NCBI GenBank assembly: GCA_038078555.1
Contig: JBBTYQ010000001.1
Location: 60,966-124,965, forward strand
Direction of reading: 5' to 3'
DNA length: 64,000 nt
Source: Patescibacteria group bacterium
GTDB lineage: Bacteria; Patescibacteriota; Minisyncoccia; UBA6257; UBA9933
Shown: positions 1,541 through 38,436 of the stretch, one piece after another
Numbering within the stretch: the first letter of the stretch is position 1
Layout of the letters: every line of letters starts with the position of its first letter
The notes under the pieces: model-generated
Told to the model about the DNA's origin: nothing
Seen by the model: the letters and a program-made list of their open reading frames with translations, nothing else
Database searches by the model: none
Made by a program: the position numbers and the translations under genes

Positions 1541-4500
1541 CTACTCCCCTATCTTCAACCAATTCCTATTCATAATGGAGAAGTCTATGGAATTAACTAT
1601 AGTGTCTTTGTTGATGTCAGAGATTGGGTCTGATAGAAACCATTTGGAAGATAACATGGAGTAATCAAGAGAATTGATGACATTGTCTTGATTTAAGTCT
1701 CCGGCTGGTAAGGTTGGAATAGTGATGGTTGAGTTATTGGTAAGACTGATATTAGTTTGTTTTTTGGATAAGTAATAAGGTGATGATACTTTAACGTCGT
1801 AAGTGCTTGGAGCAATGGTTATTGAAGATAAAGTTATTGAGTTAGCAGTCGGGTTTTGAGTTGCGGTGTAGATTGCGGTTGAAGAACCCGGATTGTAAAT
1901 AGAGATGGTAAAGCTGTTGGAATTAATAGTAGTGTTTCTTTCAAGAGATAGGTTGAAAGAAACATTGGAGGTAGTGGAGACTGGCGGAGCTTGAGTCGTG
2001 GCTGAGGCTGATACTGATTGAGCTGATACATTATTTGCGGCGTCATAAGCGGAAACCGTATAAGAGTATGAAGTGCTTGGAGATAAGCCGGTGTCTGAAT
2101 AACTGGTAGTATTGGAAGTTCCAATTTGCGTACCTCCCCGATATATTCTATAGCCTGTTACTCCGACGTTATCAGTCGAAGCAATCCAAGAGAGATTAAT
2201 TTGAGTTGAAGAGATTGCAGTGGCTGATAGGTTTGTGGGTACTGATGGAGCCGTGGTGTCAGAAGGCGGCGGAGGCGGGATGACTGAACCAGTATAATTA
2301 GAAACACTGGAAAGTTCTTGCAAGGAAAGAATTCTATTATAAATCATTACTTCGTCGATTTTTCCGTTAAATGCTTGAGAACCGCTTGTAAAGGCGCCGA
2401 TTATAAAATTACTGGCTGAATCGTCAGTGGGAGCGCCGCTGCCTATTGATCTTGAAGTATAAGCGGTCTCGCTTACGCTTCCACCTGAAGGCGCGGTATA
2501 AAATCTTATGCCGTCAGCGCTGGAAAATGTTATAGCCGCAAACTGCCAGGCGCCCAGCGTGATGGAATCACTGGCCGCCACGGTTGACGCAATTCCATTT
2601 GCTCTTGTAATAAACGAGGAGAAAGTATTTGGTGTTTGAAGTTTTGTTCTTTTGTATTCGGTTGTTAAAGTGGCCTTATTAAATAATCTTCCGGATGAAC
2701 TGCCTCCCAAAGTATTGGGTAAAATCCACATGGTAATGGTAAAAGGGTCTAAATTATCCATGATTGTCGGACTGCCCAAGTCAACCATGTCGTTTACTCC
2801 GTCAAAGTTTATGGCTCCATTTACTTTTCCGGTTGTCCAGGTCGGTCCATTGGTCAATGTTCCGCTGTTGTTACTTGAAGAATCATTGGCAATTAAGCCG
2901 CTTCCTTCGTCAAAATTCCAATAGCCTATTAAGTTAGAAGGTAGCTGACTTGAACCTCCTGCTAAAGCCACGGAAAAAGATATTAGATAATCATCAGGAT
3001 TAGAATTATTGGATTGGTCTTGGCATCTGATGTAATAGGAGTAAGCTGAACCGCTTGATAAACCTGTTATCAAGACTGAATGATTGGTTGAGTTGGTAGT
3101 GGAGAAAGTATTGGGTATTGAGGCGTATGAAGTATTTGCCGTAGTTGAATATTTGCAAGTGGCAGTTTCATTGGTTGATAAGGATAAGGTAGTTTGAGTG
3201 GTTGAAGAAGGCAGACTGCCTGATGGAGCTCCACTTGATCTTACAGGAGGAGTGATGTCAGCTGTCGGAGCTTGAGTTGTAGCTGAGGCTGAACTTGATT
3301 GAGCTGATACATTACCAGCCGCGTCATAAGCGGCAACTGTATAAGAGTAGGCTGTAGAAGCCGTAAGTCCGGTATTTGAATAAGTTGTATTGGCGGTGGT
3401 AGCAATTTGCGTACCTGCTCGATATATTCTATAGCCTGTTACTCCGACATTATCAGTAGAAGCAGTCCAAGAAAGATTAATTTGAGATTGGGAGATTGCA
3501 GTGGCGGATAAGCCAGTGGAAACTGAAGGAGCGGTAGTATCAGAAGGCGGTGGTGGTGGTGGCGGCAGAGTTCCCGAACAAGTTGATAAAAGACCGATAC
3601 ATTCAGTGCCTGTTTGATAAGCGCCCATTACTTGACTCGAGCGTCCATTGGCCGGATATGAAGTTCTTTTGAAATCAGCGGGTTGATTGAATGTTCCAGA
3701 AGAATTAAGAAAATTAGGATTTGTTGTTATAGAGTTTTCATCGCAATTTATTCCGGTCGTACAACCAGCCCCAGCCAAAAAAGATTTCCAAGCCGAAAGA
3801 GTGGTTCCTTTGGAAGAACCGTTTACCCACCAACTAGTATTGCCGGCTCCGCTGTAATAATCGTTGTAATCTATATAATCAAAATCAGAGATCGTCCAGT
3901 TGGAAGAATCAAAACCCAAAAAATTTCCGCCTGTAGCATGATAATGAATATTATTCCAAAAATGAGACGCCTGAGACGTGCTTTGCCAATAACCGATGTC
4001 TCTGATATTGTTGTAAAACGTATTATTCCTTACGTAAAAGTAATTAGGCGCCCCGTTAGCCACGGAAACAGCCGTGCCGTTGTTTATAAAAACATTCTGA
4101 TAAATATCCGACCAATCAATGCCTACTTGAGTGTCTCCTTCAATTCCTTGAGGCATATTATGAAAAAAATTATAGCGCGCAGTCATTTGATTACCGCGGT
4201 CTTTCCACTTTATGCCTGTATTAAGGCCATCATAGAATTCGTTATTCTCTAAAATCATGCCTTTTGTCCCGTATGTTAAAATAAGAACGTCATTTCCCGA
4301 CCCTTGGGCCATTGCAGGCAAATTGTCGTGAATTTTATTATTTCGAACAAGCAAGTTTTCCATCCAGTCTGTAGGCGTTGTATTGGGAGGATTGCCTGTG
4401 GTGCGGATAACTGCGGGAAATCCCTGATAATCGCCACCGCCAGATAAATCGTTATTCTGTATAATAGAATTATCTCCGCCAGCGCCGACGTGAATATTAC

Positions 4501-4947: not shown

Positions 4948-6771
4948 TTACCAGATTATGCTTTTAAATGCTTTTATAAATATTGTAAGTATATTAGGCA
5001 TAATATCAGAAGGCGGCGGCGAAATAAATTTTTCTGAAGGAACCGGACTTAAAAACGGCTCTTTATAAAGTAAATTATCAACTGACTCCTGCGGTATCGG
5101 CATTAAAGGAGCAAATGGCGAAATTATCCTTTGGGGAGACATTATTTCCTGAGTTGGCATTTGTCCTTCCTCCATCATTTTCTTAATCATATCGGGGCTA
5201 GGAATTATATTCTGATAATTATTAGGCGCCTCTCCGTAAAATGGCATTTCTTTAGCCGGCATCATTTGACCTTCGAATCCTTCACGGAACATTTCGCTTG
5301 GAATTTCTCCTTGAGGCATTTCACGATAAGGTGCTTCTTTGAATCCTTCAGGAAGTCCTTTGGGCAAATTAGCTGGTTTAAATTTTTCGCATTCTTCTTT
5401 ATGTGTTTGGTCAGAACAATATCTCGTGCAATCTTCGAATCCCGAACAACCGCCCGGTCCTCTCATTCTTTCCGGACTGCCAATCATTGGCATGCCCTCT
5501 TGCAATCTTCCTTCTTGAAGTCTCGCTGATTCGCCTTGAATCATAGACTTAGGCCTAAACCCTTCAAAACATTTTCTCATAGAATCTCCTATTTGCGGTC
5601 CGGGCATCAAAACGCCGGCTTGAATTTTCTCCAAAATTTCCAGACCTAAGTTTGATTTTAAACATTCTTGAACCTCAGAAGGCGCTCCAGAAAAATCATT
5701 CTTCATATGTTCAATCCCTTCTCTCATGTTTTCAATATCTTTTTCCGGAATCAGTCCGTGCTCTTTAGCAAAACCAAAACAAACTTCTGCGTTATTTGAG
5801 TTATTACAATATGCTTCGCATTCTTCTTTGCCCCGGCAATCGCCCGGTCCTTTACCGCCGGTTTTTCTAAACATTTCAGCTTCTTCCGGTTTCATAAAAC
5901 CGGCTTTAATAGCAAAATTAGCGCATTCTTCCGAATGTGTTCCATCTTCGCAATATGCTTCGCATTCTTCTTTGCCCCGGCAATCGCCCGGCATCTCGCC
6001 CGCTATCATCAATGGCATAATTCTTCTGGCTTCTTCAACTTCTTTCTCCTCAATAAAACCGGCCGCCACGGCAAAATTAAAACATTCTTCCATGTGAATT
6101 GATTCGGAACAATACACATCGCATTCTTTTCTCCCTCGGCAGTTGCCCGGCGGATTAATACCGGACTTAATCGCTTTCATTGCTTTTTTTGCTTCTTTAA
6201 GTTCTTTCTCAGGCATAAAACCCGCTTGTTCGGCAAAAGCCAAACACTCTTCCATGTGCTCGGAGTTATCACAATATAATTCGCAGTCTTTTTTGTTTTT
6301 ACAGCCGCCAGGAAGAGTTGCTCCTTCTTTCACTGTCTTAGCAACTAGTCTAGCTTCCCTTAGCTCTTCTTCGGAAATCAAATCATTTTCCTCGGCAAAA
6401 TTCAAACAAACTTCCATATTATTGGGATTATCACAAAAAGTCTCGCATTCTTTTTTATTTTTGCAGCCAGCCGGACCTTCGCCTATTTTAATAAAAGCTT
6501 TTGCCTTTCTAGCTTCTTCCTTGGAAATTAAATTATTTTTTTCGGCAAAATTAACGCAAGCACCAATATTTTCCGGCTTATCACAATAAGTCCGGCATTG
6601 AGTTTCATTTTTACAATTGCCTAGTTCTTTTACTGGATAGCTGATATCTAATTGTTGTGTTCCGATTTCTGTTTCCTGCGCCTGAGCGATTATAAAATAG
6701 CTGGTAAAAAATCCAGTAGCAATGATAGCTGCGCCTAATATTAAATTTATATTTATTCGCATTATTTTCAT
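4948..6771 (-). CDS. Secreted Cys-rich tandem-repeat protein: eight repeats of about 42 aa of the form C-x6-C-x3-C-x7/8-C-x2-FA, followed by a Met/Pro/Gln-rich low-complexity tail
   Basis: 607 aa. Signal peptide MKIMRININLILGAAIIATGFF. Repeat units include CKNKKECETFCDNPNNMEVCLNFAEENDLISEEELREARL, CRGKEECEAYCEDGTHSEECANFAIKAGFM and similar. The tail is rich in MP..QM motifs. Confidence 0.75.
   Translation of the reverse strand: MKIMRININLILGAAIIATGFFTSYFIIAQAQETEIGTQQLDISYPVKELGNCKNETQCRTYCDKPENIGACVNFAEKNNLISKEEARKAKAFIKIGEGPAGCKNKKECETFCDNPNNMEVCLNFAEENDLISEEELREARLVAKTVKEGATLPGGCKNKKDCELYCDNSEHMEECLAFAEQAGFMPEKELKEAKKAMKAIKSGINPPGNCRGRKECDVYCSESIHMEECFNFAVAAGFIEEKEVEEARRIMPLMIAGEMPGDCRGKEECEAYCEDGTHSEECANFAIKAGFMKPEEAEMFRKTGGKGPGDCRGKEECEAYCNNSNNAEVCFGFAKEHGLIPEKDIENMREGIEHMKNDFSGAPSEVQECLKSNLGLEILEKIQAGVLMPGPQIGDSMRKCFEGFRPKSMIQGESARLQEGRLQEGMPMIGSPERMRGPGGCSGFEDCTRYCSDQTHKEECEKFKPANLPKGLPEGFKEAPYREMPQGEIPSEMFREGFEGQMMPAKEMPFYGEAPNNYQNIIPSPDMIKKMMEEGQMPTQEIMSPQRIISPFAPLMPIPQESVDNLLYKEPFLSPVPSEKFISPPPSDIMPNILTIFIKAFKSIIW
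5770..6620. repeat. Tandem repeats of about 126 bp encoding the Cys-rich modules
   Basis: Recurring nucleotide strings such as gcattcttctttgccccggcaatcgcccgg and ttcggcaaaattaa... at roughly 126-bp spacing. Confidence 0.55.
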
Positions 6772-15914: not shown

Positions 15915-17030
15915 TTACTGGTTTTTAATTGGCATTAAAACATAAAACCAAGACTCGTCTTCGTTTGATCTAATAAGAGCTGGCTTGTTGGAACTGTTTA
16001 AGCCGAGAAAAATATTTTCTGATTTTATATTTTTTAATCCATCCAAAACAAATCGCCAATTAAAAACCGCCTCCATTGTCGCGCCGTTTATTTTTGCGGG
16101 TATTAAGTATTTATTTTCTCCAATAATTTGACTAAAAGAAAAAACCTCTATGCTTTTATTGCTTTCTTTTGTTATTATTTTTACCTCACTTAGTCTCTCC
16201 GCGAATATTCCGGCCAACTTAACCGCATTGATCAATTCTTCTTTGTTTATTATCACTTCGGTTTCGTAATTTTTTGGGATAATTTGCGTATATTCAGGAA
16301 ATTCGCCATTTATTAATCTTGAAATTATTTCTGTTTTTTCTGTTTTAAAAAGTATTTGATTTTGATCTAGGAAGATTGTTGTTTTTTCTTCGTCGTTGTT
16401 TTGCAATTCTTTTATTACCTCTTGAACTGCTTTTGATGGGATTATTATTTTGAATGGTTTATTAAAATTTGTATTGAATTGATTATTGTTGATTGTTTTT
16501 TCTGATAATCTAAAGCTGTCGGTTGTTACTATTTTTAGTGAATTTATTTGAAAATCAAATAAAACGCCGTTTAATTCTGGTTTGTTTTCAGCGGCAGTTG
16601 AATTAATAACAGAAGCCAGGGCGTCTCTTAAAATAAAATTTTTAATTTCTAAATGATTTTGCGTATTGGTAATTTGGGGAATAATCGGAAACTCTTCTTT
16701 TTTGGTGCCGTTTATTTCTGCTTGATAATTATCGGTTTTTATTAGTAATTTATTATTAATAATTTCTAGGGTTATTCTTTCGGTTTGAATATTATTAATA
16801 ATCGCTGAAAAAATATTTAAGGGAATTGTTAGTTCGCCGGTATTAATAATTTTTCCCGTTACAAAACTTGTTACTGCTAATTCCAGGTCGGTTGCTGATA
16901 ATTTTATTTTATTATCTTGAGTTTCTATTAAAAAATTTTTAAGTATCGGCAAACTAGAATTAGCCACGCTGATTCTTTCCAAAGATTTAATTCCTTCTTT
17001 TAAATTATTTTTTAAAATAATTAGATTCAT
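15915..17030 (-). CDS. dnaN: DNA polymerase III beta sliding clamp
   Basis: 371 aa, immediately downstream of dnaA. Three-domain length and the N-terminus MNLIILKNNLKEGIKSLERIS are typical of DnaN. Confidence 0.8.
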   Translation of the reverse strand: MNLIILKNNLKEGIKSLERISVANSSLPILKNFLIETQDNKIKLSATDLELAVTSFVTGKIINTGELTIPLNIFSAIINNIQTERITLEIINNKLLIKTDNYQAEINGTKKEEFPIIPQITNTQNHLEIKNFILRDALASVINSTAAENKPELNGVLFDFQINSLKIVTTDSFRLSEKTINNNQFNTNFNKPFKIIIPSKAVQEVIKELQNNDEEKTTIFLDQNQILFKTEKTEIISRLINGEFPEYTQIIPKNYETEVIINKEELINAVKLAGIFAERLSEVKIITKESNKSIEVFSFSQIIGENKYLIPAKINGATMEAVFNWRFVLDGLKNIKSENIFLGLNSSNKPALIRSNEDESWFYVLMPIKNQ

Positions 17031-17195
17031 AGCAATTTTGTTTATACTATTATTACTATTACTATTATTAATATATTAATATAGTAGCAGTAGTAGGGGG
17101 TTGTTAATTTGTGGACAAACGCATTTTCCCTTTATTTAAATAGATTTTTTAATAGAAATTATTTAATTACCTGGGGAAAAGCAGTGGATTTATTT
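17031..17195. promoter_or_regulatory. AT-rich dnaA-dnaN intergenic region with DnaA-box-like 9-mers; candidate oriC or DUE component
   Basis: tgtggacaa (1 mismatch to the reverse complement of TTATCCACA) and agtggattt, plus AT-rich tracts such as tattattactattactattattaatatattaatata. Confidence 0.3.
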
Positions 17196-18551
17196 CTAAA
17201 CACTTTCGTAAATATTTTCTTTAATTAATAAAATTTTTTGATTTAAATCGTGATTCTTGTTGATTTCCCTGGATATTTTTTCAAAAGAATGAATTGCTGT
17301 TGTGTGGTCCCTTTTCCCTATCTTATCCCCAATGTCAGGGTAAGACATCCTCAGGATATCCCGAAGCAAAAACACCGCAACTTGCCTTGGTTCAATAACT
17401 CTTTTTCTTCTTGAATGGTTGCTTATTTCTTCCGGAAGAATTTCAAAAAAAGCAGCAACCGCCTTAATTACTTGGTCAGAAGAAATTTTCTTAGTTGATT
17501 GCTGAAGAGTGTTATTAATGATTTCTTCTATCATTTTAGGCTGGAGCTCTATATTTTTAACTTCTTGGTAAAATATTATTTTATTTATAATACCCTCAAC
17601 CTCTCTGATGTTTCTTTGGACTTTTGAGGCGATGATTGAGCATAAATTATCCGGCAACACTTTTTTCATCTCCTGAAGCTTTGTTTTTATGATTGCCATG
17701 CGCATTTCATAATCAGGATAAGTAATATCAGCCGCCATGCCTCCCTCAAAGCGCGATCGGAGCCTTTCGTGGAGCGTAGGAATGGCTGACGGCGGGCGAT
17801 CCGAAGAAATAATTATTTGCTTATTGTTTTCATAAAGAACATTGAATGTGTGGAAAAATTCTTCTTCGCTTCGCTCCTTGCCGCCGATAAATTGAATATC
17901 GTCAATTATTAAAACATCAACATTACGGTAAATATTTTTTATATCATCCATTCTTTTATTACGGATCGCCGAAACTACTTCGTTGACAAATTTTTCTGAA
18001 TGAACATATTTAACTCTCACTTTATTTTTATGAGTTTTTTTTATTTCGTTGCCGATGGCCTGGATAAGATGTGTTTTACCAAGCCCTGTTCCGCCGTAAA
18101 TGAAAAAAGGATTATATTTTTTTCCGGGGTTTTTAATAATAGCCAATGACGCGGCATAGGCCAGTTCGTTTGACGAGCCGACGACAAAAGATTCTAAATT
18201 ATATTTCGGATGAAGGCCGGACTCCGGATCTATTTTAAATTCCGGAAAAACCAACTGCTTTTCTGTTTCATTTTCTTGGATAGTTTTAAACAGATCAGCT
18301 TTTTCGTTAAGAATGGCATATTCTATTTTTTTTATCGAAGGGTCGTGAGACCTAAGAGATTCAAAAATAATTTTATGGTACTTATTGGCCACCCATTCTT
18401 TGGCAAAATTATTGGATAAGCCGATAGAAACGCATCCCTCATCTGTTTTTTTGAGCAAACGGCTGTTTTTCATCCAAGTAAGGAAATTAGGCCGCGATAT
18501 TTGAATTTCTATTTCCGCTAAAGCGGTTTGCCAAAGCTGTTCAATGTCCAT
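17196..18551 (-). CDS. dnaA: Chromosomal replication initiator DnaA
   Basis: 451 aa. Walker A GGTGLGKTHL, AAA+ motifs, and a C-terminal DnaA-box-binding HTH region. Confidence 0.9.
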   Translation of the reverse strand: MDIEQLWQTALAEIEIQISRPNFLTWMKNSRLLKKTDEGCVSIGLSNNFAKEWVANKYHKIIFESLRSHDPSIKKIEYAILNEKADLFKTIQENETEKQLVFPEFKIDPESGLHPKYNLESFVVGSSNELAYAASLAIIKNPGKKYNPFFIYGGTGLGKTHLIQAIGNEIKKTHKNKVRVKYVHSEKFVNEVVSAIRNKRMDDIKNIYRNVDVLIIDDIQFIGGKERSEEEFFHTFNVLYENNKQIIISSDRPPSAIPTLHERLRSRFEGGMAADITYPDYEMRMAIIKTKLQEMKKVLPDNLCSIIASKVQRNIREVEGIINKIIFYQEVKNIELQPKMIEEIINNTLQQSTKKISSDQVIKAVAAFFEILPEEISNHSRRKRVIEPRQVAVFLLRDILRMSYPDIGDKIGKRDHTTAIHSFEKISREINKNHDLNQKILLIKENIYESV

Positions 18552-32710: not shown

Positions 32711-34003
32711 TTATTTCCCCTCTCCTCTCTTCTTTTTATTCTCTTTTTGTTCGAAAATTTTAATCACGCCGTATTCGCCGTCATAGCCAGGACGGATTTT
32801 TACTCTGCCTTCTCTTACGCGTTTTATGCCTTCGGCAATACGGCCGTCAGTTGACGACTTAAGTTCGTTTTCATTTACGTTTAGTAGGATATTCAATTCA
32901 TTATTAAAATTTTTAATGAGCTTATCGTATTCTTTCTTTACTGCTTTGGTTTTGACGCCCGCATCAAATACTTCGGCAATGATTTCATCAAGCTTAATGA
33001 GATTGTAATATGGGATACGATTGTTATGTTGGTGAAAATTAGTGCCGGAAGAAATTTTTATCTCCGGCCGGTCGGCTAATTGTTTTATGCGATTCATTAC
33101 TCCGATAGTCAAAGGTTTGCCGCATACAGGGCAAAGACCGCCATGTTTTTTTGTTTCTTCCGGATTAAAAACAATTCCGCATGCGCGATGGCCGTCAAAA
33201 TGGTATTTACCCTCCTCTGGAAAAAATTCTATAGTGGCGATGAATTTTTTAGGGTCTCGGGATTTGATTGCTTTGATTATTCCCGCATAAGAAAGTTCTG
33301 TATCAAAAATATTCGCTTCTCGGCCAATGCGTTCCAAGCTATGGGAATCGGAATTGGAGATAAAAGAGATATTGTCTAGCTTTGATAAGCGCCAGTTCAT
33401 AGCCGGGTCGCTGGATAGCCCCGTTTCAATAGCAAAAATATTTTTTGAGTATTTTCCGAAACATTCCTTAATAGAATCAAAACCGCTCATTGAGCCGAAA
33501 ACAGAAAACCATGGAGTCCATGCATGAGCCGGAATAATTACCGCCTCGGGATTAACGGTAAAAACAATTCTTGCCAATTTTTCGCTATCAAGCCCTAAAA
33601 TCGGCCGGCCGTCGGATTTCAAATTGCCGATATAGGAAAGCTGAGCGTTGATTTTTTCTGCCGTTTCAATATCAGGCGCAAAAACCAAGTTATGAACTCT
33701 CCGCGTTTTTCCTGCTCTGGAATAAATGCCGGATATTTCCACGCTTAACAAAAATCTAGTATTGCTGAAAGTTCCTTTAATCGTTTCTTTCTTATATTGA
33801 TTTTTTAATTTAAAAAGACCCGGTTCGGCTGGCTCAAGTTTTTCTTTTATTTCTCCTAGCCATTTTGGATGAGTAAAGTCCCCTGTTCCCATCACAAGAA
33901 TTCCCTTGTCGTCAGCCCAAGCGTCAAGACTTTCTAAATTCATTGATTTGCTGGTGGCGCGGGAGTATTTGGAATGGATATGAAGGTCCGCGATAAATTT
34001 CAT
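32711..34003 (-). CDS. PHP-domain protein of the endonuclease-Q-like (TIGR00375) family
   Basis: 430 aa. N-terminal PHP motif DLHIHSKYS. C-terminal Zn finger GGLCPVCGK. Confidence 0.5.
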   Translation of the reverse strand: MKFIADLHIHSKYSRATSKSMNLESLDAWADDKGILVMGTGDFTHPKWLGEIKEKLEPAEPGLFKLKNQYKKETIKGTFSNTRFLLSVEISGIYSRAGKTRRVHNLVFAPDIETAEKINAQLSYIGNLKSDGRPILGLDSEKLARIVFTVNPEAVIIPAHAWTPWFSVFGSMSGFDSIKECFGKYSKNIFAIETGLSSDPAMNWRLSKLDNISFISNSDSHSLERIGREANIFDTELSYAGIIKAIKSRDPKKFIATIEFFPEEGKYHFDGHRACGIVFNPEETKKHGGLCPVCGKPLTIGVMNRIKQLADRPEIKISSGTNFHQHNNRIPYYNLIKLDEIIAEVFDAGVKTKAVKKEYDKLIKNFNNELNILLNVNENELKSSTDGRIAEGIKRVREGRVKIRPGYDGEYGVIKIFEQKENKKKRGEGK

Positions 34004-34115
34004 TTTTAAATTTTATCACAAAAAACGTTAAAGAGCGTTAAAAGGCTAAAAGGCAAAGGCACCGAGCCATTTTTTGATTCTCTGATTATAGGTTTTGCTC
34101 GAACAAGTTAGTTCT

Positions 34116-34185
34116 GGTGCCGAGGGCGGGACTTGAACCCGCATGCCTTACGGCGCTAGCTCCTAAAGCTAGTGCGCCCCGCACT
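34116..34185 (-). tRNA. 3' portion of a tRNA-Leu(TAG)-like gene (D-stem 3' strand, anticodon arm, long variable arm, T arm, acceptor 3' strand, encoded CCA). It has no adjacent 5' acceptor strand
   Basis: Minus-sense sequence gtgcggggcgc a ctagc-tttagga-gctag cgccgtaaggcat gcggg-ttcaagt-cccgc cctcggc a cca. The anticodon loop ttTAGga gives anticodon TAG. The matching 5' strand gccgagg is found about 180 nt upstream. Confidence 0.4.
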
Positions 34186-34187
34186 AA
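34177..34187. repeat. Left arm of an 11-bp inverted repeat (TTAGTGCGGGG/CCCCGCACTAA) flanking the embedded tRNA
   Basis: The plus strand reads ccccgcactaa here. Its reverse complement ttagtgcgggg recurs at 34297-34307. Confidence 0.6.
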
Positions 34188-34209
34188 ATTTTTAAACTTT
34201 GCTTACTTG

Positions 34210-34292
34210 TGCCGGAGGAGAGATTTGAACTCTCACGAGCTTACGCTCACAGCGCCCTAAACGCTGCGTGTCTGCCATTTCACCACTCCGGC
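34210..34292 (-). tRNA. tRNA-Leu (anticodon TAG), type II, complete cloverleaf, no encoded CCA
   Basis: Minus sense: gccggag tg gtg-aaatggcaga-cac g cagcg-ttTAGgg-cgctg tgagcgtaagctcgtg gagag-ttcaaat-ctctc ctccggc a. Confidence 0.8.
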
Positions 34293-34296
34293 AAAA

Positions 34297-34307
34297 TTAG
34301 TGCGGGG
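34297..34307. repeat. Right arm of the 11-bp inverted repeat
   Basis: ttagtgcgggg on the plus strand. Confidence 0.6.
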
Positions 34308-34344
34308 TAAATCTGCCAGCCTGCCCCGTATACAGCTTTGCTGT

Positions 34345-34368
34345 TCTGCGGGGTTTCGCCACCTCGGC
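34345..34368 (-). other. Orphan tRNA 5' segment (acceptor 5' strand gccgagg, nt 8-9 tg, D-stem 5' strand gcg) that matches the 3' portion at 34116-34185
   Basis: The minus-sense start gccgaggtggcgaaaccccgcag is collinear with the 5' end of type-II Leu tRNAs (compare gcccccgtggcggaa in the Leu-CAG gene). A -10-like tatact lies about 12 nt upstream. Confidence 0.35.
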
Positions 34369-34442
34369 TTTATTGACTTCAGTATAAATAGATGTTTTGT
34401 TTAATCAAGCACCTTAACTTTAACAAAAATGGAGAGCCTAAG

Positions 34443-34811
34443 ATGGAAGAGATAAAAGAGACGAAAGGAGGAATTGAGGTCAGAGAAACGGCAAGATCGC
34501 TTAAAAATAAATTTATAGCCCTTGTTCAGAAATATTGTCCCAATTTTCAAGTAGACGACGGCATAGAAAACCTCGCTTTTTTTAAAAAAGAAAGTTTATT
34601 TTCAAAAATTTTTATCGGCAAAGAAAAATCAGTTATGTATGTGTTTCGTTTGGACGGAAATATTGGAGGTTTGGATCTTTTCGAAGCCGGAGAATGGTCG
34701 GATATAAAAATTGTGGCTGAAGAGGAAAAATATCTTGTTGGTGTTATAAAGATTGCCGGTGAGTATGGAAAAATCAGCGGGAAAAGAGTGGTTATTGATA
34801 GAAGTTTTTAA
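34443..34811 (+). CDS. Hypothetical protein; start taken at the internal Met with SD ggagag
   Basis: About 123 aa with no recognisable motifs. The track ORF begins at 34392, which would overlap the tRNA promoter region. Confidence 0.4.
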   Translation: MEEIKETKGGIEVRETARSLKNKFIALVQKYCPNFQVDDGIENLAFFKKESLFSKIFIGKEKSVMYVFRLDGNIGGLDLFEAGEWSDIKIVAEEEKYLVGVIKIAGEYGKISGKRVVIDRSF

Positions 34812-37237: not shown

Positions 37238-37585
37238 TCATTGCAGGAATTTACTAATAATTACGTCAAAACTGAACGCTAATAAAGCTACTATAATGGC
37301 AATCACCGCATAAAGAATCCGCTTATTGGATTCTGTGATTTTTGTCGGGTCGCCTTGGGCGGTTAAATAAGAGAAAGCGGCTATAATAATAAAAAAAGCC
37401 GCAACAATGAAAAATAGCGTATAAGCCCAACCGAGAATTTTTTCAAAAATGCGGAATATGTCATTAAAACTTTTTATCGGCGAATCAGAAGGCGCGCCAG
37501 CCGCATTGATAAAAAAGATAGGGATAAAAATCAATAAGGCAGATAGCGAGAGTTTTTTAAAATATTTCTTGGATAATATTGTCAT
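37238..37585 (-). CDS. Pilin-like small secreted two-TM protein, paralog 3
   Basis: 115 aa. ...ILGWAYTLFFIVAAFFIIIAAFSYLTAQGDPTKITESNKRILYAVIAIIVALLAFSF.. is about 70% identical to paralog 4 over the core. Confidence 0.55.
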   Translation of the reverse strand: MTILSKKYFKKLSLSALLIFIPIFFINAAGAPSDSPIKSFNDIFRIFEKILGWAYTLFFIVAAFFIIIAAFSYLTAQGDPTKITESNKRILYAVIAIIVALLAFSFDVIISKFLQ

Positions 37586-37592
37586 AAAAAGT

Positions 37593-37955
37593 TTAAATTA
37601 ATTTTGCTCCTAAGGCTTCTTGAATAATGTAAATTACGCCCCACGAACAGATGATAACGGCATAACCTATTGCGGCCCACATAATTGTCTTCCTTCCGCT
37701 TATTACTTGATCCGGCTTGTCGCCGGCGGTAAGTATCAAAAATCCGCCGTAAAGCACCATTAAAGCGACAATTGGGGCGCCGAGCTTGATTAAATAGCCG
37801 ATAATTCTTTGAACTAATTGAAGAAAAGTTTGGTCTTGCAAAGGATCTCTTAATCCTCCTGTTTCAAGAACTCCGGCAGCCAAAGCTGTTTGAAGCGAAA
37901 AGAAATAAGCAGAAACAAAAAACGATAAAATGTATTTTTTTGAGAAATTACCCAT
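37593..37955 (-). CDS. Pilin-like small secreted two-TM protein, paralog 2
   Basis: 120 aa. Signal peptide. ...LMVLYGGFLILTAGDKPDQVISGRKTIMWAAIGYAVII.. Same topology and the same LT(A/S)xGD motif. Confidence 0.5.
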   Translation of the reverse strand: MGNFSKKYILSFFVSAYFFSLQTALAAGVLETGGLRDPLQDQTFLQLVQRIIGYLIKLGAPIVALMVLYGGFLILTAGDKPDQVISGRKTIMWAAIGYAVIICSWGVIYIIQEALGAKLI

Positions 37956-38025
37956 TTATTTTATTATTTGATAATTGATATTTAAAGTCAATCCCGCGCG
38001 ATTTATGATTTTGTGGCACAGATAT

Positions 38026-38436
38026 TTAACAGTGGATTGCCGTTCTTATTTCCAATGGATTAAACGGCTGGCCGGTTAAAAGCATAAGCAATTCTTTGAT
38101 TATCAGCCAGGCGGCTAGCGCTATTAAGAGCCCGATTACCGCGGCTTTAATAACATCTCCCCCTCTTTTGAGTTCGCTGGCAGAGTCTCGGCTTATCATA
38201 ATTACAAAACCGCCGTAAATTATGAAAATAACTGTTAAAGGAATAGCAACGCTATAAAGCGCAAAATTTATAATATTTTCTCCGAGAGTCAGTAAATCGC
38301 AAAACTTGCAACTTGCTCCTTCGCAAGGAATAAGCCCGGCGGCGCTTGCCATAAAAGGAGAATTTAAAATCGTAAACAAAAAAATAACAGCATAAAAAGC
38401 AAAAATTTTAAATTTTAAATAATTTTGACTTTTCAT
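38026..38436 (-). CDS. Pilin-like small secreted two-TM protein, paralog 1 (more divergent, Cys-containing)
   Basis: 136 aa. Signal peptide. ...FIIYGGFVIMISRDSASELKRGGDVIKAAVIGLLIALAAWLI... Confidence 0.45.
   Translation of the reverse strand: MKSQNYLKFKIFAFYAVIFLFTILNSPFMASAAGLIPCEGASCKFCDLLTLGENIINFALYSVAIPLTVIFIIYGGFVIMISRDSASELKRGGDVIKAAVIGLLIALAAWLIIKELLMLLTGQPFNPLEIRTAIHC

What the first reader, a model, noticed from the sequence alone, without database searches (positions are those of the whole stretch)
34116..34368. Split tRNA-Leu(TAG)-like gene with a complete tRNA-Leu(TAG) nested between an 11-bp inverted repeat
On the minus strand, a canonical tRNA 3' portion lies at 34116-34185. 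It has the D-stem 3' strand cgc, position 26, anticodon arm ctagc-ttTAGga-gctag, a long variable arm, T arm gcggg-ttcaagt-cccgc, acceptor 3' strand cctcggc, discriminator A and an encoded CCA. It has no adjacent 5' acceptor strand. The exactly complementary 5' strand gccgagg, followed by tg and the D-stem 5' strand gcg, sits about 180 nt upstream at 34345-34368, collinear with the 5' ends of type-II Leu tRNAs. It is preceded by a -10-like TATACT. Between the two halves is a fully formed, different tRNA-Leu(TAG) at 34210-34292. That embedded tRNA is flanked by a perfect 11-bp inverted repeat TTAGTGCGGGG (34177-34187 and 34297-34307). A third copy of CCCCGCA lies next to the 5' half. In an RNA, the inverted repeats could form a stem that extrudes the embedded tRNA. 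In DNA, they look like the boundaries of an invertible or inserted segment. The alternatives I can see are an intervening element in a tRNA D-loop, a DNA inversion or insertion scar that left a tRNA pseudogene, or an assembly chimera. A bacterial tRNA disrupted in the D-loop by a segment carrying another tRNA of the same anticodon is not a described arrangement as far as I know.
Basis: seen in the sequence. Interest (0 to 1): 0.72.

Follow-up and report, generated by a model that had tools for sequence, protein, structure and literature searches.

The report
tRNA gene nested inside broken tRNA
In a groundwater Patescibacteria genome an ordinary leucine tRNA gene is cut into three pieces by two insertions, one carrying a complete replacement leucine tRNA; this is real and unusual, but most likely a scar of tRNA-gene replacement rather than a new kind of bacterial tRNA splicing.

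Summary
The 'missing' D-loop core (CTGGCAGA, 34319-34312) lies between the halves, so the gene is in three pieces. They are separated by a 34-nt hairpin insert and a 135-nt insert that carries a complete tRNA-Leu(UAG) bracketed by an 11-bp inverted repeat. Joined, the pieces give a canonical 85-nt tRNA-Leu(UAG).

A syntenic relative has one uninterrupted tRNA-Leu(TAG) in the same slot. The junctions cannot form an archaeal bulge-helix-bulge motif. The inserts match no Rfam family and are too small for group I introns.

A second nested case (tRNA-Val inside a tRNA-Val-like gene with no anticodon loop) occurs in a related lineage. Truncated or decayed tRNA fragments next to intact tRNAs, mostly of the same type, occur in several others.

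Best reading (about 0.7): a DNA-level gene-replacement scar. The embedded tRNA is the working gene, transcribed from the old gene's promoter and released by RNase P and RNase Z.

The outer pieces show no decay and would stay paired after excision, so RNA-level reuse is not excluded (about 0.07). No bacterial precedent was found in the literature searched.

The parts
34381..34408 (-). Sigma-70-like promoter TTGATT-16 nt-TATACT, ending 12 nt upstream of piece 1. It is the only promoter-like site in 33950-34500.
   Evidence: 9 of 12 matches; shuffles give a mean of 0.4 sites; sequence
34354..34368 (-). Piece 1 of the interrupted tRNA-Leu(UAG) gene: GCCGAGG (acceptor 5' strand), U8 G9, GCG (D-stem 5' strand), AAA (positions 13-15).
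   Evidence: collinear with other Leu tRNAs
34320..34353 (-). Insertion 1, 34 nt: CCCCGCAGAACAGCAAAGCTGTATACGGGGCAGG. It folds as a CCCCG/CGGGG-closed hairpin with an inner ACAGC/GCTGT stem. Its position is ambiguous by 1 nt (a C on either side).
34312..34319 (-). Piece 2: CTGGCAGA, the D-loop core with G18 G19. It is identical to the D-loop of the window's own tRNA-Leu(CAG) and of L012 tRNA-Leu(GAG).
34177..34311 (-). Insertion 2, 135 nt: TTTA, left repeat arm, TTTT, the complete tRNA-Leu(UAG), a 22-nt trailer, right repeat arm.
34297..34307 (-). Left arm of the inverted repeat, CCCCGCACTAA. It contains a direct copy of CGCACTA, the first 7 nt of piece 3.
   Evidence: (I3, D8)
34210..34292 (-). 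Embedded complete tRNA-Leu(UAG), 83 nt, with no encoded CCA. Its D-arm is GTG-AAATGGCAGA-CAC, unlike the GCG...CGC D-arm of the other Leu tRNAs of the window and its syntenic relative.
   Evidence: ARAGORN; Rfam 51.6 bits; alignment
34177..34187 (-). Right arm of the inverted repeat, TTAGTGCGGGG. It can alternatively pair with the start of piece 3 (TAGTGCG-GGG-CGCACTA).
   Evidence: (I3, I10)
34115..34176 (-). Piece 3: D-stem 3' strand CGC, A26, anticodon arm CTAGC-TTTAGGA-GCTAG, variable arm, T arm GCGGG-TTCAAGT-CCCGC, acceptor 3' strand CCTCGGC, discriminator A, encoded CCA.
34104..34114 (-). 3' trailer GAACTAACTTG, shared with the intact tRNA-Leu(TAG) of the syntenic relative and with tRNA-Leu(GAG) genes of other Patescibacteria.

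Best explanation
The locus is a resident tRNA-Leu(UAG) gene that was broken at the DNA level and functionally replaced by a second tRNA-Leu(UAG) gene lodged inside it.

Shown:
- The old gene is in three collinear pieces (15 + 8 + 62 nt). They are separated by a 34-nt hairpin insert after position 15 and a 135-nt insert at the junction between the D-loop and the D-stem 3' strand.
- The second insert carries a complete, divergent tRNA-Leu(UAG) bracketed by an 11-bp inverted repeat.
- A syntenic relative has an uninterrupted tRNA-Leu(TAG) in the same place.

Inferred:
- Transcription starts at the old gene's promoter, the only one detected, and runs through all the pieces.
- The precursor folds so that the repeat forms a stem presenting the embedded cloverleaf.
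- RNase P and RNase Z release the embedded tRNA, and CCA is added enzymatically, as it must be for the window's CCA-less tRNA-Arg and tRNA-Glu.
- The outer pieces are by-products and do not give a decoding tRNA.

The insertion was tolerated only because it brought a working isoacceptor. Its origin is unresolved. It was most likely illegitimate or microhomology-mediated recombination with incoming or duplicated tRNA DNA, which left a 7-nt direct repeat (CGCACTA) and a quasi-palindrome.
For: 1. The three pieces join into an 85-nt tRNA-Leu(TAG) by ARAGORN. The joined sequence aligns with other Leu tRNAs without a gap at either junction and keeps every invariant column. Its D-arm region GGCGAAACTGGCAGACGCACTA is identical to L012 tRNA-Leu(GAG).
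2. L006 and L007 share the gene order Band_7 / tRNA / EndoQ / RNase J / tRNA-Leu(CAG) / SBP_bac_5. They have one intact tRNA-Leu(TAG) with CCA and the same AACTAACTTG trailer in this slot.
3. No RNA-level removal signal was found. The central helix of a bulge-helix-bulge motif never reaches 4 of 4 pairs at either junction pair. The inserts match no Rfam family at E<=10. Known Patescibacteria tRNA introns are group I introns in the anticodon loop (PMC13011429).
4. A second nested case, L004/L005, has an outer tRNA-Val-like gene with no anticodon loop at all. That outer gene cannot decode.
5. Related loci hold further broken tRNA genes:
- L097: a 5' piece with a hairpin insert and the D-loop core, but no 3' part.
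- L014: a partial tRNA-Val with a D-loop hairpin, then a GIY-YIG ORF, then an intact tRNA-Val.
- L006: a decayed 5' half of tRNA-Leu(CAG).
- L103: the 3' two-thirds of a tRNA starting in its D-loop.
- L056: att-like 3' fragments.
6. The embedded tRNA's D-arm differs from the other Leu tRNAs of the window and its syntenic relative, which is consistent with an incoming gene.
7. The only promoter-like site lies upstream of piece 1.
8. The genome has other tRNAs without encoded CCA.
Against: - The outer gene shows no decay. The acceptor stem is 7/7, the D stem 3/3, the anticodon stem 5/5, the variable-arm stem 3/3 and the T stem 5/5, and all universal positions are present. This holds for both independent nested cases (window and L004).
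- Each insert carries a helix at its base, so in the predicted fold both are extruded and the outer cloverleaf still forms (z = -5.0).
- After excision of the embedded tRNA the two outer pieces would stay associated (ddG about -24 kcal/mol).
- The bracketing repeats (11 nt here, 8 nt in L004, each 4 nt from the embedded tRNA's 5' end) are unlikely by chance. A passive-scar model does not explain them.
- No close relative (above 77% EndoQ identity) exists to date the event or test for purifying selection.
- No expression data were available.
Confidence: 0.7

Rival explanations
1. The outer tRNA-Leu is still used at the RNA level. RNase P and RNase Z cut out the embedded tRNA. The two outer pieces stay held together by the acceptor stem, the D stem and the 11-15 bp repeat helix. 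They then act as a non-covalent split tRNA-Leu(UAG) with the hairpin insert tolerated in the D-loop, or an unknown activity trims and ligates them into a normal 85-nt tRNA.
For: - All outer stems and universal positions are intact.
- Both inserts are closed by helices next to the piece boundaries, and the outer cloverleaf forms in the minimum-energy fold.
- Cofolding of the two outer pieces gives -76.2 kcal/mol against -21.0 and -31.3 alone.
- The 8-nt D-loop core with G18 G19 is preserved exactly.
Against: - There is no bulge-helix-bulge motif and no intron or ribozyme family match.
- No ligase or splicing endonuclease is among the 40 window ORFs scanned, although that is only 64 kb of the genome.
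- RNase P and RNase Z cuts would not remove insertion 1 or the repeat arms, so no known bacterial pathway yields the canonical tRNA.
- The embedded tRNA already supplies the same anticodon, so nothing selects for the outer one.
- In the parallel L004 case the outer gene has no anticodon loop.
- In L097 and L014 similar D-loop hairpin inserts sit in fragments that cannot be functional.
Confidence: 0.07
2. The repeat-bracketed tRNA is a cassette delivered by a dedicated mechanism that targets tRNA genes of the same type. One possibility is gene conversion started by a free-standing homing endonuclease, as with phage T4 SegB in its tRNA cluster. Another is a small non-autonomous mobile element. 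Nesting would then be a recurrent product of that mechanism and not a one-off accident. This rival concerns origin and is compatible with the embedded tRNA being the working gene.
For: - There are at least three independent events in which a tRNA gene is interrupted and an intact tRNA of the same anticodon lies inside or next to it: the window (Leu), L004 (Val) and L097 (Val).
- L014 still has a GIY-YIG ORF between a partial and an intact tRNA-Val.
- Breakpoints recur in the D-loop (window, L097, L014, L103).
- Both nested tRNAs are bracketed by unusual inverted repeats.
- SegB is a GIY-YIG endonuclease that drives inheritance of a tRNA gene region (PMC2330249).
Against: - There is no endonuclease, integrase or transposase near the window's locus, and ORF122/139 is an orphan with no family match.
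- The repeats of the two nested cases share no sequence, there is no target-site duplication, and the window holds no other copy of the repeat.
- The shared hairpin motif is not enriched.
- The 'same anticodon' pattern can be explained by survivorship, because only insertions that bring a replacement are viable.
- All loci were sampled next to one gene (EndoQ), so the recurrence estimate is biased.
Confidence: 0.2
3. The outer pieces are kept because they now serve as a processing scaffold. The outer acceptor/T-arm minihelix and the repeat stem would give RNase P, 3'-end and possibly RNase III sites. These would define the ends of the precursor and present the embedded tRNA, much as leader-trailer stems do for ribosomal RNA.
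For: - The 'cloverleaf within a cloverleaf' folds are significantly stable (z = -5.0 and -5.1).
- The repeats lie 4 nt from the 5' end of both embedded tRNAs, and in L004 also 4 nt from the 3' end.
- In L004 the outer CCA is followed directly by the EndoQ start codon. A tRNA directly upstream of EndoQ is common in relatives.
Against: - Ordinary tRNAs in these genomes have no such stems, so no requirement for a scaffold is evident.
- There is no comparative evidence for selection.
- The idea is purely structural inference.
Confidence: 0.08
4. The arrangement is an assembly chimera.
For: The sequence comes from a metagenome-assembled contig at about 10x coverage.
Against: - A Logan assembly of a different run (SRR32696708) is identical over 1,652 nt spanning the whole locus.
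- The adjacent proteins lie on at least 4-5 contigs, most longer than 50 kb.
- The analogous nested tRNA-Val is identical in two separate NCBI assemblies.
Confidence: 0.01

Closest known systems
Archaeal multi-intron, split and tri-split tRNA genes (Thermoproteales, Nanoarchaeum equitans, Caldivirga maquilingensis; reviewed in PMC4390854)
   Same: A tRNA coding sequence is broken into two or three pieces at non-canonical positions, including the D-arm region. Complementary sequences next to the pieces bring them together in the precursor.
   Different: This organism is a bacterium. The junctions cannot form the bulge-helix-bulge motif that defines those introns. The pieces are contiguous on one strand behind one promoter. 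One intervening segment is itself a complete tRNA. No splicing endonuclease is known or seen.
tRNA gene disruption by a mobile element in Caldiarchaeum subterraneum (PMC3293823)
   Same: This is a DNA-level model in which integration and recombination of foreign DNA creates interrupted tRNA genes and scattered 5' fragments. It resembles the set of fragments seen here in L097, L014, L006 and L103.
   Different: That case is archaeal, the inserted 1.8-kb element encodes a recombinase, and the products are spliced through BHB motifs. Here no recombinase is present and the inserts are 34 and 135 nt.
Group I introns in Patescibacteria tRNA genes (PMC13011429)
   Same: Same phylum. These are also interrupted tRNA genes that standard annotation tools miss.
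   Different: Those are self-splicing introns that Rfam recognises, located in the anticodon loop (33/34 to 36/37). Here the inserts are in the D-loop, far smaller than any group I intron, and match no Rfam family.
Integrase att-site remnants at tRNA genes
   Same: Partial tRNA copies lie next to intact tRNA genes. L056 shows the classic form, with tandem 3' fragments.
   Different: Classic integration restores the tRNA and leaves a direct 3' repeat at the far end of the element. Here the resident gene is not restored. The arrangement is nested and bounded by an inverted repeat, and no integrase is nearby.
Phage T4 SegB, a free-standing GIY-YIG homing endonuclease in a tRNA gene cluster (PMC2330249)
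   Same: It is a precedent for endonuclease-driven replacement of tRNA gene regions by a donor's version. A GIY-YIG ORF sits between a partial and an intact tRNA-Val in L014.
   Different: There is no endonuclease gene at the window's locus. The 81-aa L014 protein consists of the catalytic domain only and is untested.
Intervening sequences of bacterial rRNA genes, excised by RNase III without religation (from my own knowledge)
   Same: These are helix-closed insertions in a stable-RNA gene of a bacterium, and the mature RNA works as non-covalently associated fragments.
   Different: They are known for 16S and 23S rRNA, not for tRNA. Nothing here shows RNase III cleavage or a functional fragmented tRNA.

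Membership tests
Archaeal/eukaryal endonuclease-spliced tRNA intron | Bulge-helix-bulge motif: a 4-bp central helix flanked by two 3-nt bulges that contain the splice sites | tested here: not met
   at most 3 of 4 central-helix pairs at either junction pair, even with +-2 nt shifts. Manual inspection agrees.
Archaeal/eukaryal endonuclease-spliced tRNA intron | tRNA splicing endonuclease and RNA ligase encoded by the organism | tested here: inconclusive
   None among the 40 window ORFs scanned against Pfam. Only 64 kb of the genome was available.
Group I intron in a bacterial tRNA gene | Match to the group I intron covariance model and a ribozyme-sized insert | tested here: not met
   no Rfam family other than tRNA on the inserts at E<=10. 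The inserts are 34 and 135 nt, and 83 nt of the larger one are a tRNA.
Group I intron in a bacterial tRNA gene | Insertion in the anticodon loop | tested here: not met
   Both inserts lie in the D-loop region (after position 15, and between the D-loop and the D-stem 3' strand). Known sites are 33/34 to 36/37 (PMC13011429).
Split / tri-split tRNA (separate genes) | Pieces transcribed from separate loci and joined in trans | tested here: not met
   All three pieces are collinear within 254 nt behind one promoter-like site.
Integrative-element att scar at a tRNA gene | Direct repeat of the tRNA 3' segment flanking an inserted element, with an integrase nearby | tested here: not met
   No duplicated 3' or 5' fragment of either Leu tRNA was found in the window. 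Only a 7-12 nt imperfect direct repeat is present, CGCACTA(G/A)(C/T)TTT (D8). No integrase is among the neighbouring genes.
MITE / small transposable element | Terminal inverted repeats | tested here: met
   An 11-bp perfect repeat brackets the embedded tRNA (I3).
MITE / small transposable element | Target-site duplication and multiple genomic copies | tested here: not met
   The flanks ATTTA / CGCAC are not duplicated. The 64-kb window has no other copy of the repeat, and CCCCGCA occurs at the chance level.
Disrupted tRNA gene (pseudogene) with a functional replacement | Not contiguous, and not recognised as a tRNA by standard tools | tested here: met
   ARAGORN (including intron mode) and Rfam at gathering threshold find only the embedded tRNA.
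Disrupted tRNA gene (pseudogene) with a functional replacement | An uninterrupted ortholog in relatives and an intact isoacceptor in the same genome | tested here: met
   L006/L007 carry an intact tRNA-Leu(TAG) in the syntenic slot. The embedded tRNA-Leu(TAG) scores 51.6 bits.
Disrupted tRNA gene (pseudogene) with a functional replacement | Sequence decay of the disrupted copy | tested here: not met
   All outer stems are perfect and all invariant positions are kept. The event is either recent or under some constraint.
rRNA-type intervening sequence (RNase III excision, fragmented mature RNA) | Helix-closed insertion in a stable-RNA gene | tested here: met
   The minimum-energy fold closes both inserts with helices and keeps the outer cloverleaf.
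rRNA-type intervening sequence (RNase III excision, fragmented mature RNA) | Excision in vivo and function of the fragmented RNA | not testable with these tools
   This needs RNA end-mapping and aminoacylation assays.

The most novel reading that the evidence does not exclude
A bacterium makes use of a tRNA gene interrupted twice in its D-loop, where one intervening sequence is itself a tRNA. RNase P and RNase Z liberate the inner tRNA-Leu(UAG). The outer pieces, held together by the acceptor stem, the D stem and the repeat helix, then serve as a non-covalently assembled (or subsequently ligated) second tRNA-Leu(UAG). This would be a bacterial, endonuclease-independent counterpart of archaeal split tRNAs.
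Probability: 0.07. Interest if true: 0.9.

Novelty: new variant of a known kind. Interest (0 to 1): 0.45.

Why it matters
Disrupted tRNA genes are textbook features of archaea and some eukaryotes. In bacteria the only accepted interruptions are self-splicing introns in the anticodon loop.

This is a reproducibly assembled bacterial tRNA gene cut into three pieces in the D-loop, with a complete tRNA of the same anticodon nested inside it. A second nested case and several partial versions occur in related Patescibacteria.

Even as a scar it is informative. It shows tRNA genes being replaced by insertion into the resident copy, with the newcomer apparently taking over the old promoter. That gives a bacterial snapshot of the 'mobile DNA breaks tRNA genes' model proposed for the origin of archaeal introns and split tRNAs.

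There is also a practical point. Annotation tools do not report the outer gene. Gene callers run protein ORFs into such tRNA remnants.

If the outer pieces turned out to be used, it would be a new tRNA maturation route.

Tried and rejected
- Dispersed repeat or REP-like element. CCCCGCA occurs 9 times against 5.7 expected, and the other copies lie in coding sequence or a terminator. The 11-mer has no other near-copy. Rejected.
- Shared hairpin motif CCCGC(C)[AT]GAA in the window, L097 and L014 inserts. There are 15 hits against 7.4 +- 2.8 expected in 711 kb, mostly in unrelated contexts. Treated as coincidence.
- Archaeal-type intron. The organism is a bacterium (RNase J, PF18895 pilins, dnaA/dnaN) and there is no BHB motif. 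Rejected.
- Group I intron or small ribozyme. No Rfam hit. Rejected.
- ORF122/139 as the agent of insertion. No Pfam or NCBIfam match and no homolog outside this species. Uninformative.
- Genome-collection scan anchored on T-loop + CCA + trailer. It returned 3 loci, none orthologous. It revealed only the conserved trailer and a tRNA-Leu(GAG) with the same D-arm.
- Viral scans for a donor. The embedded tRNA's first 25 nt match five phage contigs, but the rest differs (81% overall). The T-arm/acceptor patterns of both tRNAs gave 0 hits. No donor was identified.
- Covariation test of the outer structure. It was not possible. No relative closer than 77% (window lineage) or 81% (L004 lineage) EndoQ identity exists in the databases searched, and none of those fetched keeps the nesting.
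- Programmed inversion. Nothing supports it apart from the repeat, and no invertase is nearby.
- A simple Campbell-type crossover at the CGCACTA repeat. It does not reproduce the observed order, because TTTACCC is on the wrong side (manual check).
Full report
**The observation**

On the minus strand, 34368-34113 reads:

- GCCGAGG TG GCG AAA
- CCCCGCAGAACAGCAAAGCTGTATACGGGGCAGG
- CTGGCAGA
- TTTA CCCCGCACTAA TTTT [83-nt tRNA-Leu(TAG), 34292-34210] CAAGTAAGCAAAGTTTAAAAAT TTAGTGCGGGG
- CGC A CTAGC TTTAGGA GCTAG CGCCGTAAGGCAT GCGGG TTCAAGT CCCGC CCTCGGC A CCA

- ARAGORN and Rfam at gathering threshold see only the embedded tRNA (51.6 bits). Rfam sees the 3' portion as a partial tRNA (22.2 bits, model positions 8-63).
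- The 11-bp inverted repeat is perfect and extends to 15 nt at 93%.
- TATACT is the -10 element of the only sigma-70-like site in the region, TTGATT-16-TATACT.

The window's own tRNA-Leu(CAG) has the D-arm GCG-GAACTGGCAGA-CGC. The interrupted gene holds GCG-AAA, then CTGGCAGA 34 nt further on, then CGC 135 nt after that. The gene is therefore in three pieces with two insertions, both in the D-loop region.

- Joining the pieces gives an 85-nt sequence that ARAGORN calls tRNA-Leu(TAG).
- The joined sequence aligns with seven other Leu tRNAs without a gap at either junction and keeps every invariant column.
- Its segment GGCGAAACTGGCAGACGCACTA is identical to a tRNA-Leu(GAG) from another Patescibacteria genome.
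- The boundaries are exact to within one nucleotide.

**Is it real**

- The locus is byte-identical in the ENA contig and the NCBI MAG, which derive from the same assembly.
- It is also identical, with 0 differences in 1,652 nt, in a Logan assembly of a different run, SRR32696708.
- An assembly chimera is excluded for practical purposes.

**The organism and its neighbourhood**

- The window is core chromosome of a Patescibacteria (CPR) bacterium from Hainich groundwater. It carries dnaA, dnaN, gyrA, polA, ruvABC, tgt, tsaD, RNase J and several PF18895 pilins, at about 38% GC.
- The 40 ORFs scanned include no integrase, transposase, homing endonuclease, RNA ligase or splicing endonuclease.
- The small ORF next to the locus (34392-34811) has no homolog outside this species.

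**Comparative evidence**

- The downstream EndoQ-family gene has no homolog above 77% identity, so no close relatives exist.
- L006 and L007 are 75% identical in EndoQ and share the gene order Band_7 / tRNA / EndoQ / RNase J / tRNA-Leu(CAG) / SBP_bac_5. In the same slot they carry one uninterrupted tRNA-Leu(TAG). It has the D-arm GCG-AAATTGGCAGA-CGC, an encoded CCA and the same AACTAACTTG trailer.
- The interrupted gene is therefore the positional counterpart of an ordinary gene, and the interruptions are derived.

**A wider pattern**

I scanned the window and 92 loci then in hand for T-arm plus acceptor ends whose matching 5' strand lies too far upstream. The scan recovered the window's locus and one further case. 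In L004/L005 a tRNA-Val-like gene with perfect acceptor, D and T arms has its anticodon loop replaced by CCCTTTC-ATAT-[complete tRNA-Val(TAC)]-CAAA-GAAAGGG. It lies directly upstream of EndoQ and folds as a cloverleaf within a cloverleaf (z = -5.1). Two separate NCBI assemblies agree on it.

Other relatives show partial versions.

- L097 has a tRNA-Val 5' strand, a GC-rich hairpin insert, the D-loop core, and then an intact tRNA-Val. It has no outer 3' part.
- L014 has a partial tRNA-Val with a D-loop hairpin insert, a GIY-YIG ORF (Pfam E = 6e-8) and then an intact tRNA-Val.
- L006 has a decayed 5' half of tRNA-Leu(CAG) upstream of the intact copy.
- L103 has the 3' two-thirds of a tRNA, starting in its D-loop, abutting an intact tRNA-Arg.
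- L056 has classic tandem 3' att-like fragments.

Broken tRNA genes beside intact tRNAs are thus common in these genomes, and breakpoints recur in the D-loop. They range from complete nesting to truncated remnants. All these loci were sampled next to one gene (EndoQ), so the frequency is not a genome-wide estimate.

**Tests of RNA-level removal**

- Neither junction pair can form the 4-bp central helix of a bulge-helix-bulge motif, even with +-2 nt shifts.
- No Rfam family other than tRNA matches the inserts at E<=10.
- Known Patescibacteria tRNA introns are group I ribozymes in the anticodon loop (PMC13011429). Reviews describe bacterial tRNA introns only as self-splicing introns in the anticodon loop (PMC4390854).
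- RNase P and RNase Z would release the embedded tRNA but could not remove the hairpin insert or the repeat arms.
- In L004 the outer gene has no anticodon loop and cannot decode.
- In L097 and L014 similar hairpin inserts sit in fragments that cannot be functional.

**What speaks for some constraint on the outer gene**

- All outer stems are perfect in both nested cases.
- Each insert has a helix at its base, so the outer cloverleaf still forms in the minimum-energy structure (z = -5.0).
- After removal of the embedded tRNA, the two outer pieces cofold at -76.2 kcal/mol, against -21.0 and -31.3 alone.
- The bracketing repeats are exceptional. The window's is 11 nt and L004's is 8 nt, against a background of 5-7 nt in 65 tRNAs.

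I cannot tell 'recent event' from 'selection' without closer relatives. The nearest relatives of L004 (79-81%) do not keep the nesting.

**Origin**

- The embedded tRNA has a GTG...CAC D-stem and a D-loop one nucleotide shorter than the GGCGRAAYTGGCAGACGC arm shared by the other Leu tRNAs of the window and its syntenic relative.
- Its anticodon stem is identical to that of the CCA-less tRNA-Leu(TAG) next to EndoQ in L104.
- Its first 25 nt match phage tRNA-Leu genes, but the rest does not. It looks like an incoming gene, but no donor was identified.
- The left repeat arm contains a direct copy of CGCACTA, the first 7 nt of piece 3. The right arm is an inverted copy of the same sequence. This points to microhomology and quasi-palindrome formation rather than a transposon, and there is no target-site duplication.
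- A simple single crossover at CGCACTA does not reproduce the observed order (manual check).
- Endonuclease-driven replacement, as with T4 SegB (PMC2330249), is plausible given L014 but has no direct support in the window.

**Verdict**

- The most likely explanation (0.7) is a DNA-level replacement scar. The resident tRNA-Leu(UAG) gene was broken, and the embedded tRNA-Leu(UAG) is now the working gene. I infer that it is transcribed from the old promoter and released by RNase P and RNase Z.
- A dedicated cassette or homing mechanism for the origin has a probability of about 0.2 and is compatible with the main reading.
- A scaffold role for the outer pieces (about 0.08) or their reuse as a split tRNA (about 0.07) remain possible.
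- I found no description of a bacterial tRNA gene nested in another. I rate it a new variant of a known kind (a disrupted tRNA gene) and of moderate interest.

Noticed in passing
L004 3896-4062 (identical in L005): A second nested tRNA. A complete tRNA-Val(TAC) with CCA is bracketed by the 7-8 bp repeat CCCTTTC/GAAAGGG. It replaces the anticodon loop of an otherwise perfect outer tRNA-Val-like gene, whose CCA is followed directly by the EndoQ start codon.
   Followed up: partly
L014 3516-3990: Several features lie in a row: a partial tRNA-Val copy with a 63-nt GC-rich hairpin inserted just before the D-stem 3' strand, an 81-aa GIY-YIG ORF, an intact tRNA-Val(TAC), and a further decayed tRNA 3' fragment before EndoQ.
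   Followed up: partly
L097 about 465-547: An orphan tRNA-Val 5' piece, GGGCGTTTAGCT | 51-nt double hairpin | AGTGGTAGA, lies directly upstream of an intact tRNA-Val(TAC). It has the same two breakpoints as the window but no outer 3' part. A 9-nt direct repeat, TTTAGCTAC, flanks the segment.
   Followed up: no
L006 7074-7127 minus strand (also L007): A decayed 5' half of tRNA-Leu(CAG), with its first 22 nt identical to the intact copy, lies 52 nt upstream of that copy and ahead of its TATAAT box.
   Followed up: no
L103 1936-2000: The 3' two-thirds of a second tRNA, starting in its D-loop (CGGATTAGAGCG...), directly abuts the 3' end of an intact tRNA-Arg(CCG).
   Followed up: no
L056 3997-4150: Two tandem copies of the last ~20 nt of tRNA-Arg(CCG) lie downstream of the intact gene. 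This is the classic signature of successive integrase-mediated insertions.
   Followed up: no
window 34104-34114; L006 3949-3959; L010 about 3408-3418; L012 about 6307-6317: The trailer CCA-(A/G)AACTAACTTG follows tRNA-Leu genes with different anticodons (TAG, GAG) in four distinct Patescibacteria genomes. It is a conserved 3' trailer of unknown meaning. The embedded tRNA's own trailer (CAAGTAAG) is 8/9 complementary to it (I20).
   Followed up: no
window 34392-34811 (+): An orphan ORF (122-139 aa) lies between the tRNA promoter and the Band_7 gene. It is absent from the syntenic relative L006, has no family match and has no homolog outside this species.
   Followed up: yes
P0008, P0020, P0035, P0112 (EndoQ homologs): Gene callers extended EndoQ ORFs 20-40 codons upstream into tRNA genes. 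The N-terminal 'peptides' (for example GGSIPSAPT and RKGCGFKSHPRH) are translated T-arms and acceptor stems. This annotation artefact can be used to find tRNAs abutting genes.
   Followed up: partly
window 34170-34186: The right repeat arm and the start of piece 3 form an alternative hairpin, TAGTGCG-GGG-CGCACTA. On the minus-strand RNA it would compete with the outer D stem and anticodon stem. On the plus strand it scores as terminator-like.
   Followed up: no
window 15915-18551 and 37238-38436: dnaN and dnaA lie in the window, so it is close to the replication origin. Three tandem small T4SS-pilin (PF18895) genes lie 3 kb from the tRNA locus.
   Followed up: no
L100-L102 (IMG/VR contigs): Large phage contigs carry tRNA arrays (Gln, Leu, Asn, Ile, Arg) together with a tmRNA gene. 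Their tRNA-Leu(TAG) shares its first 27 nt with the window's embedded tRNA.
   Followed up: no
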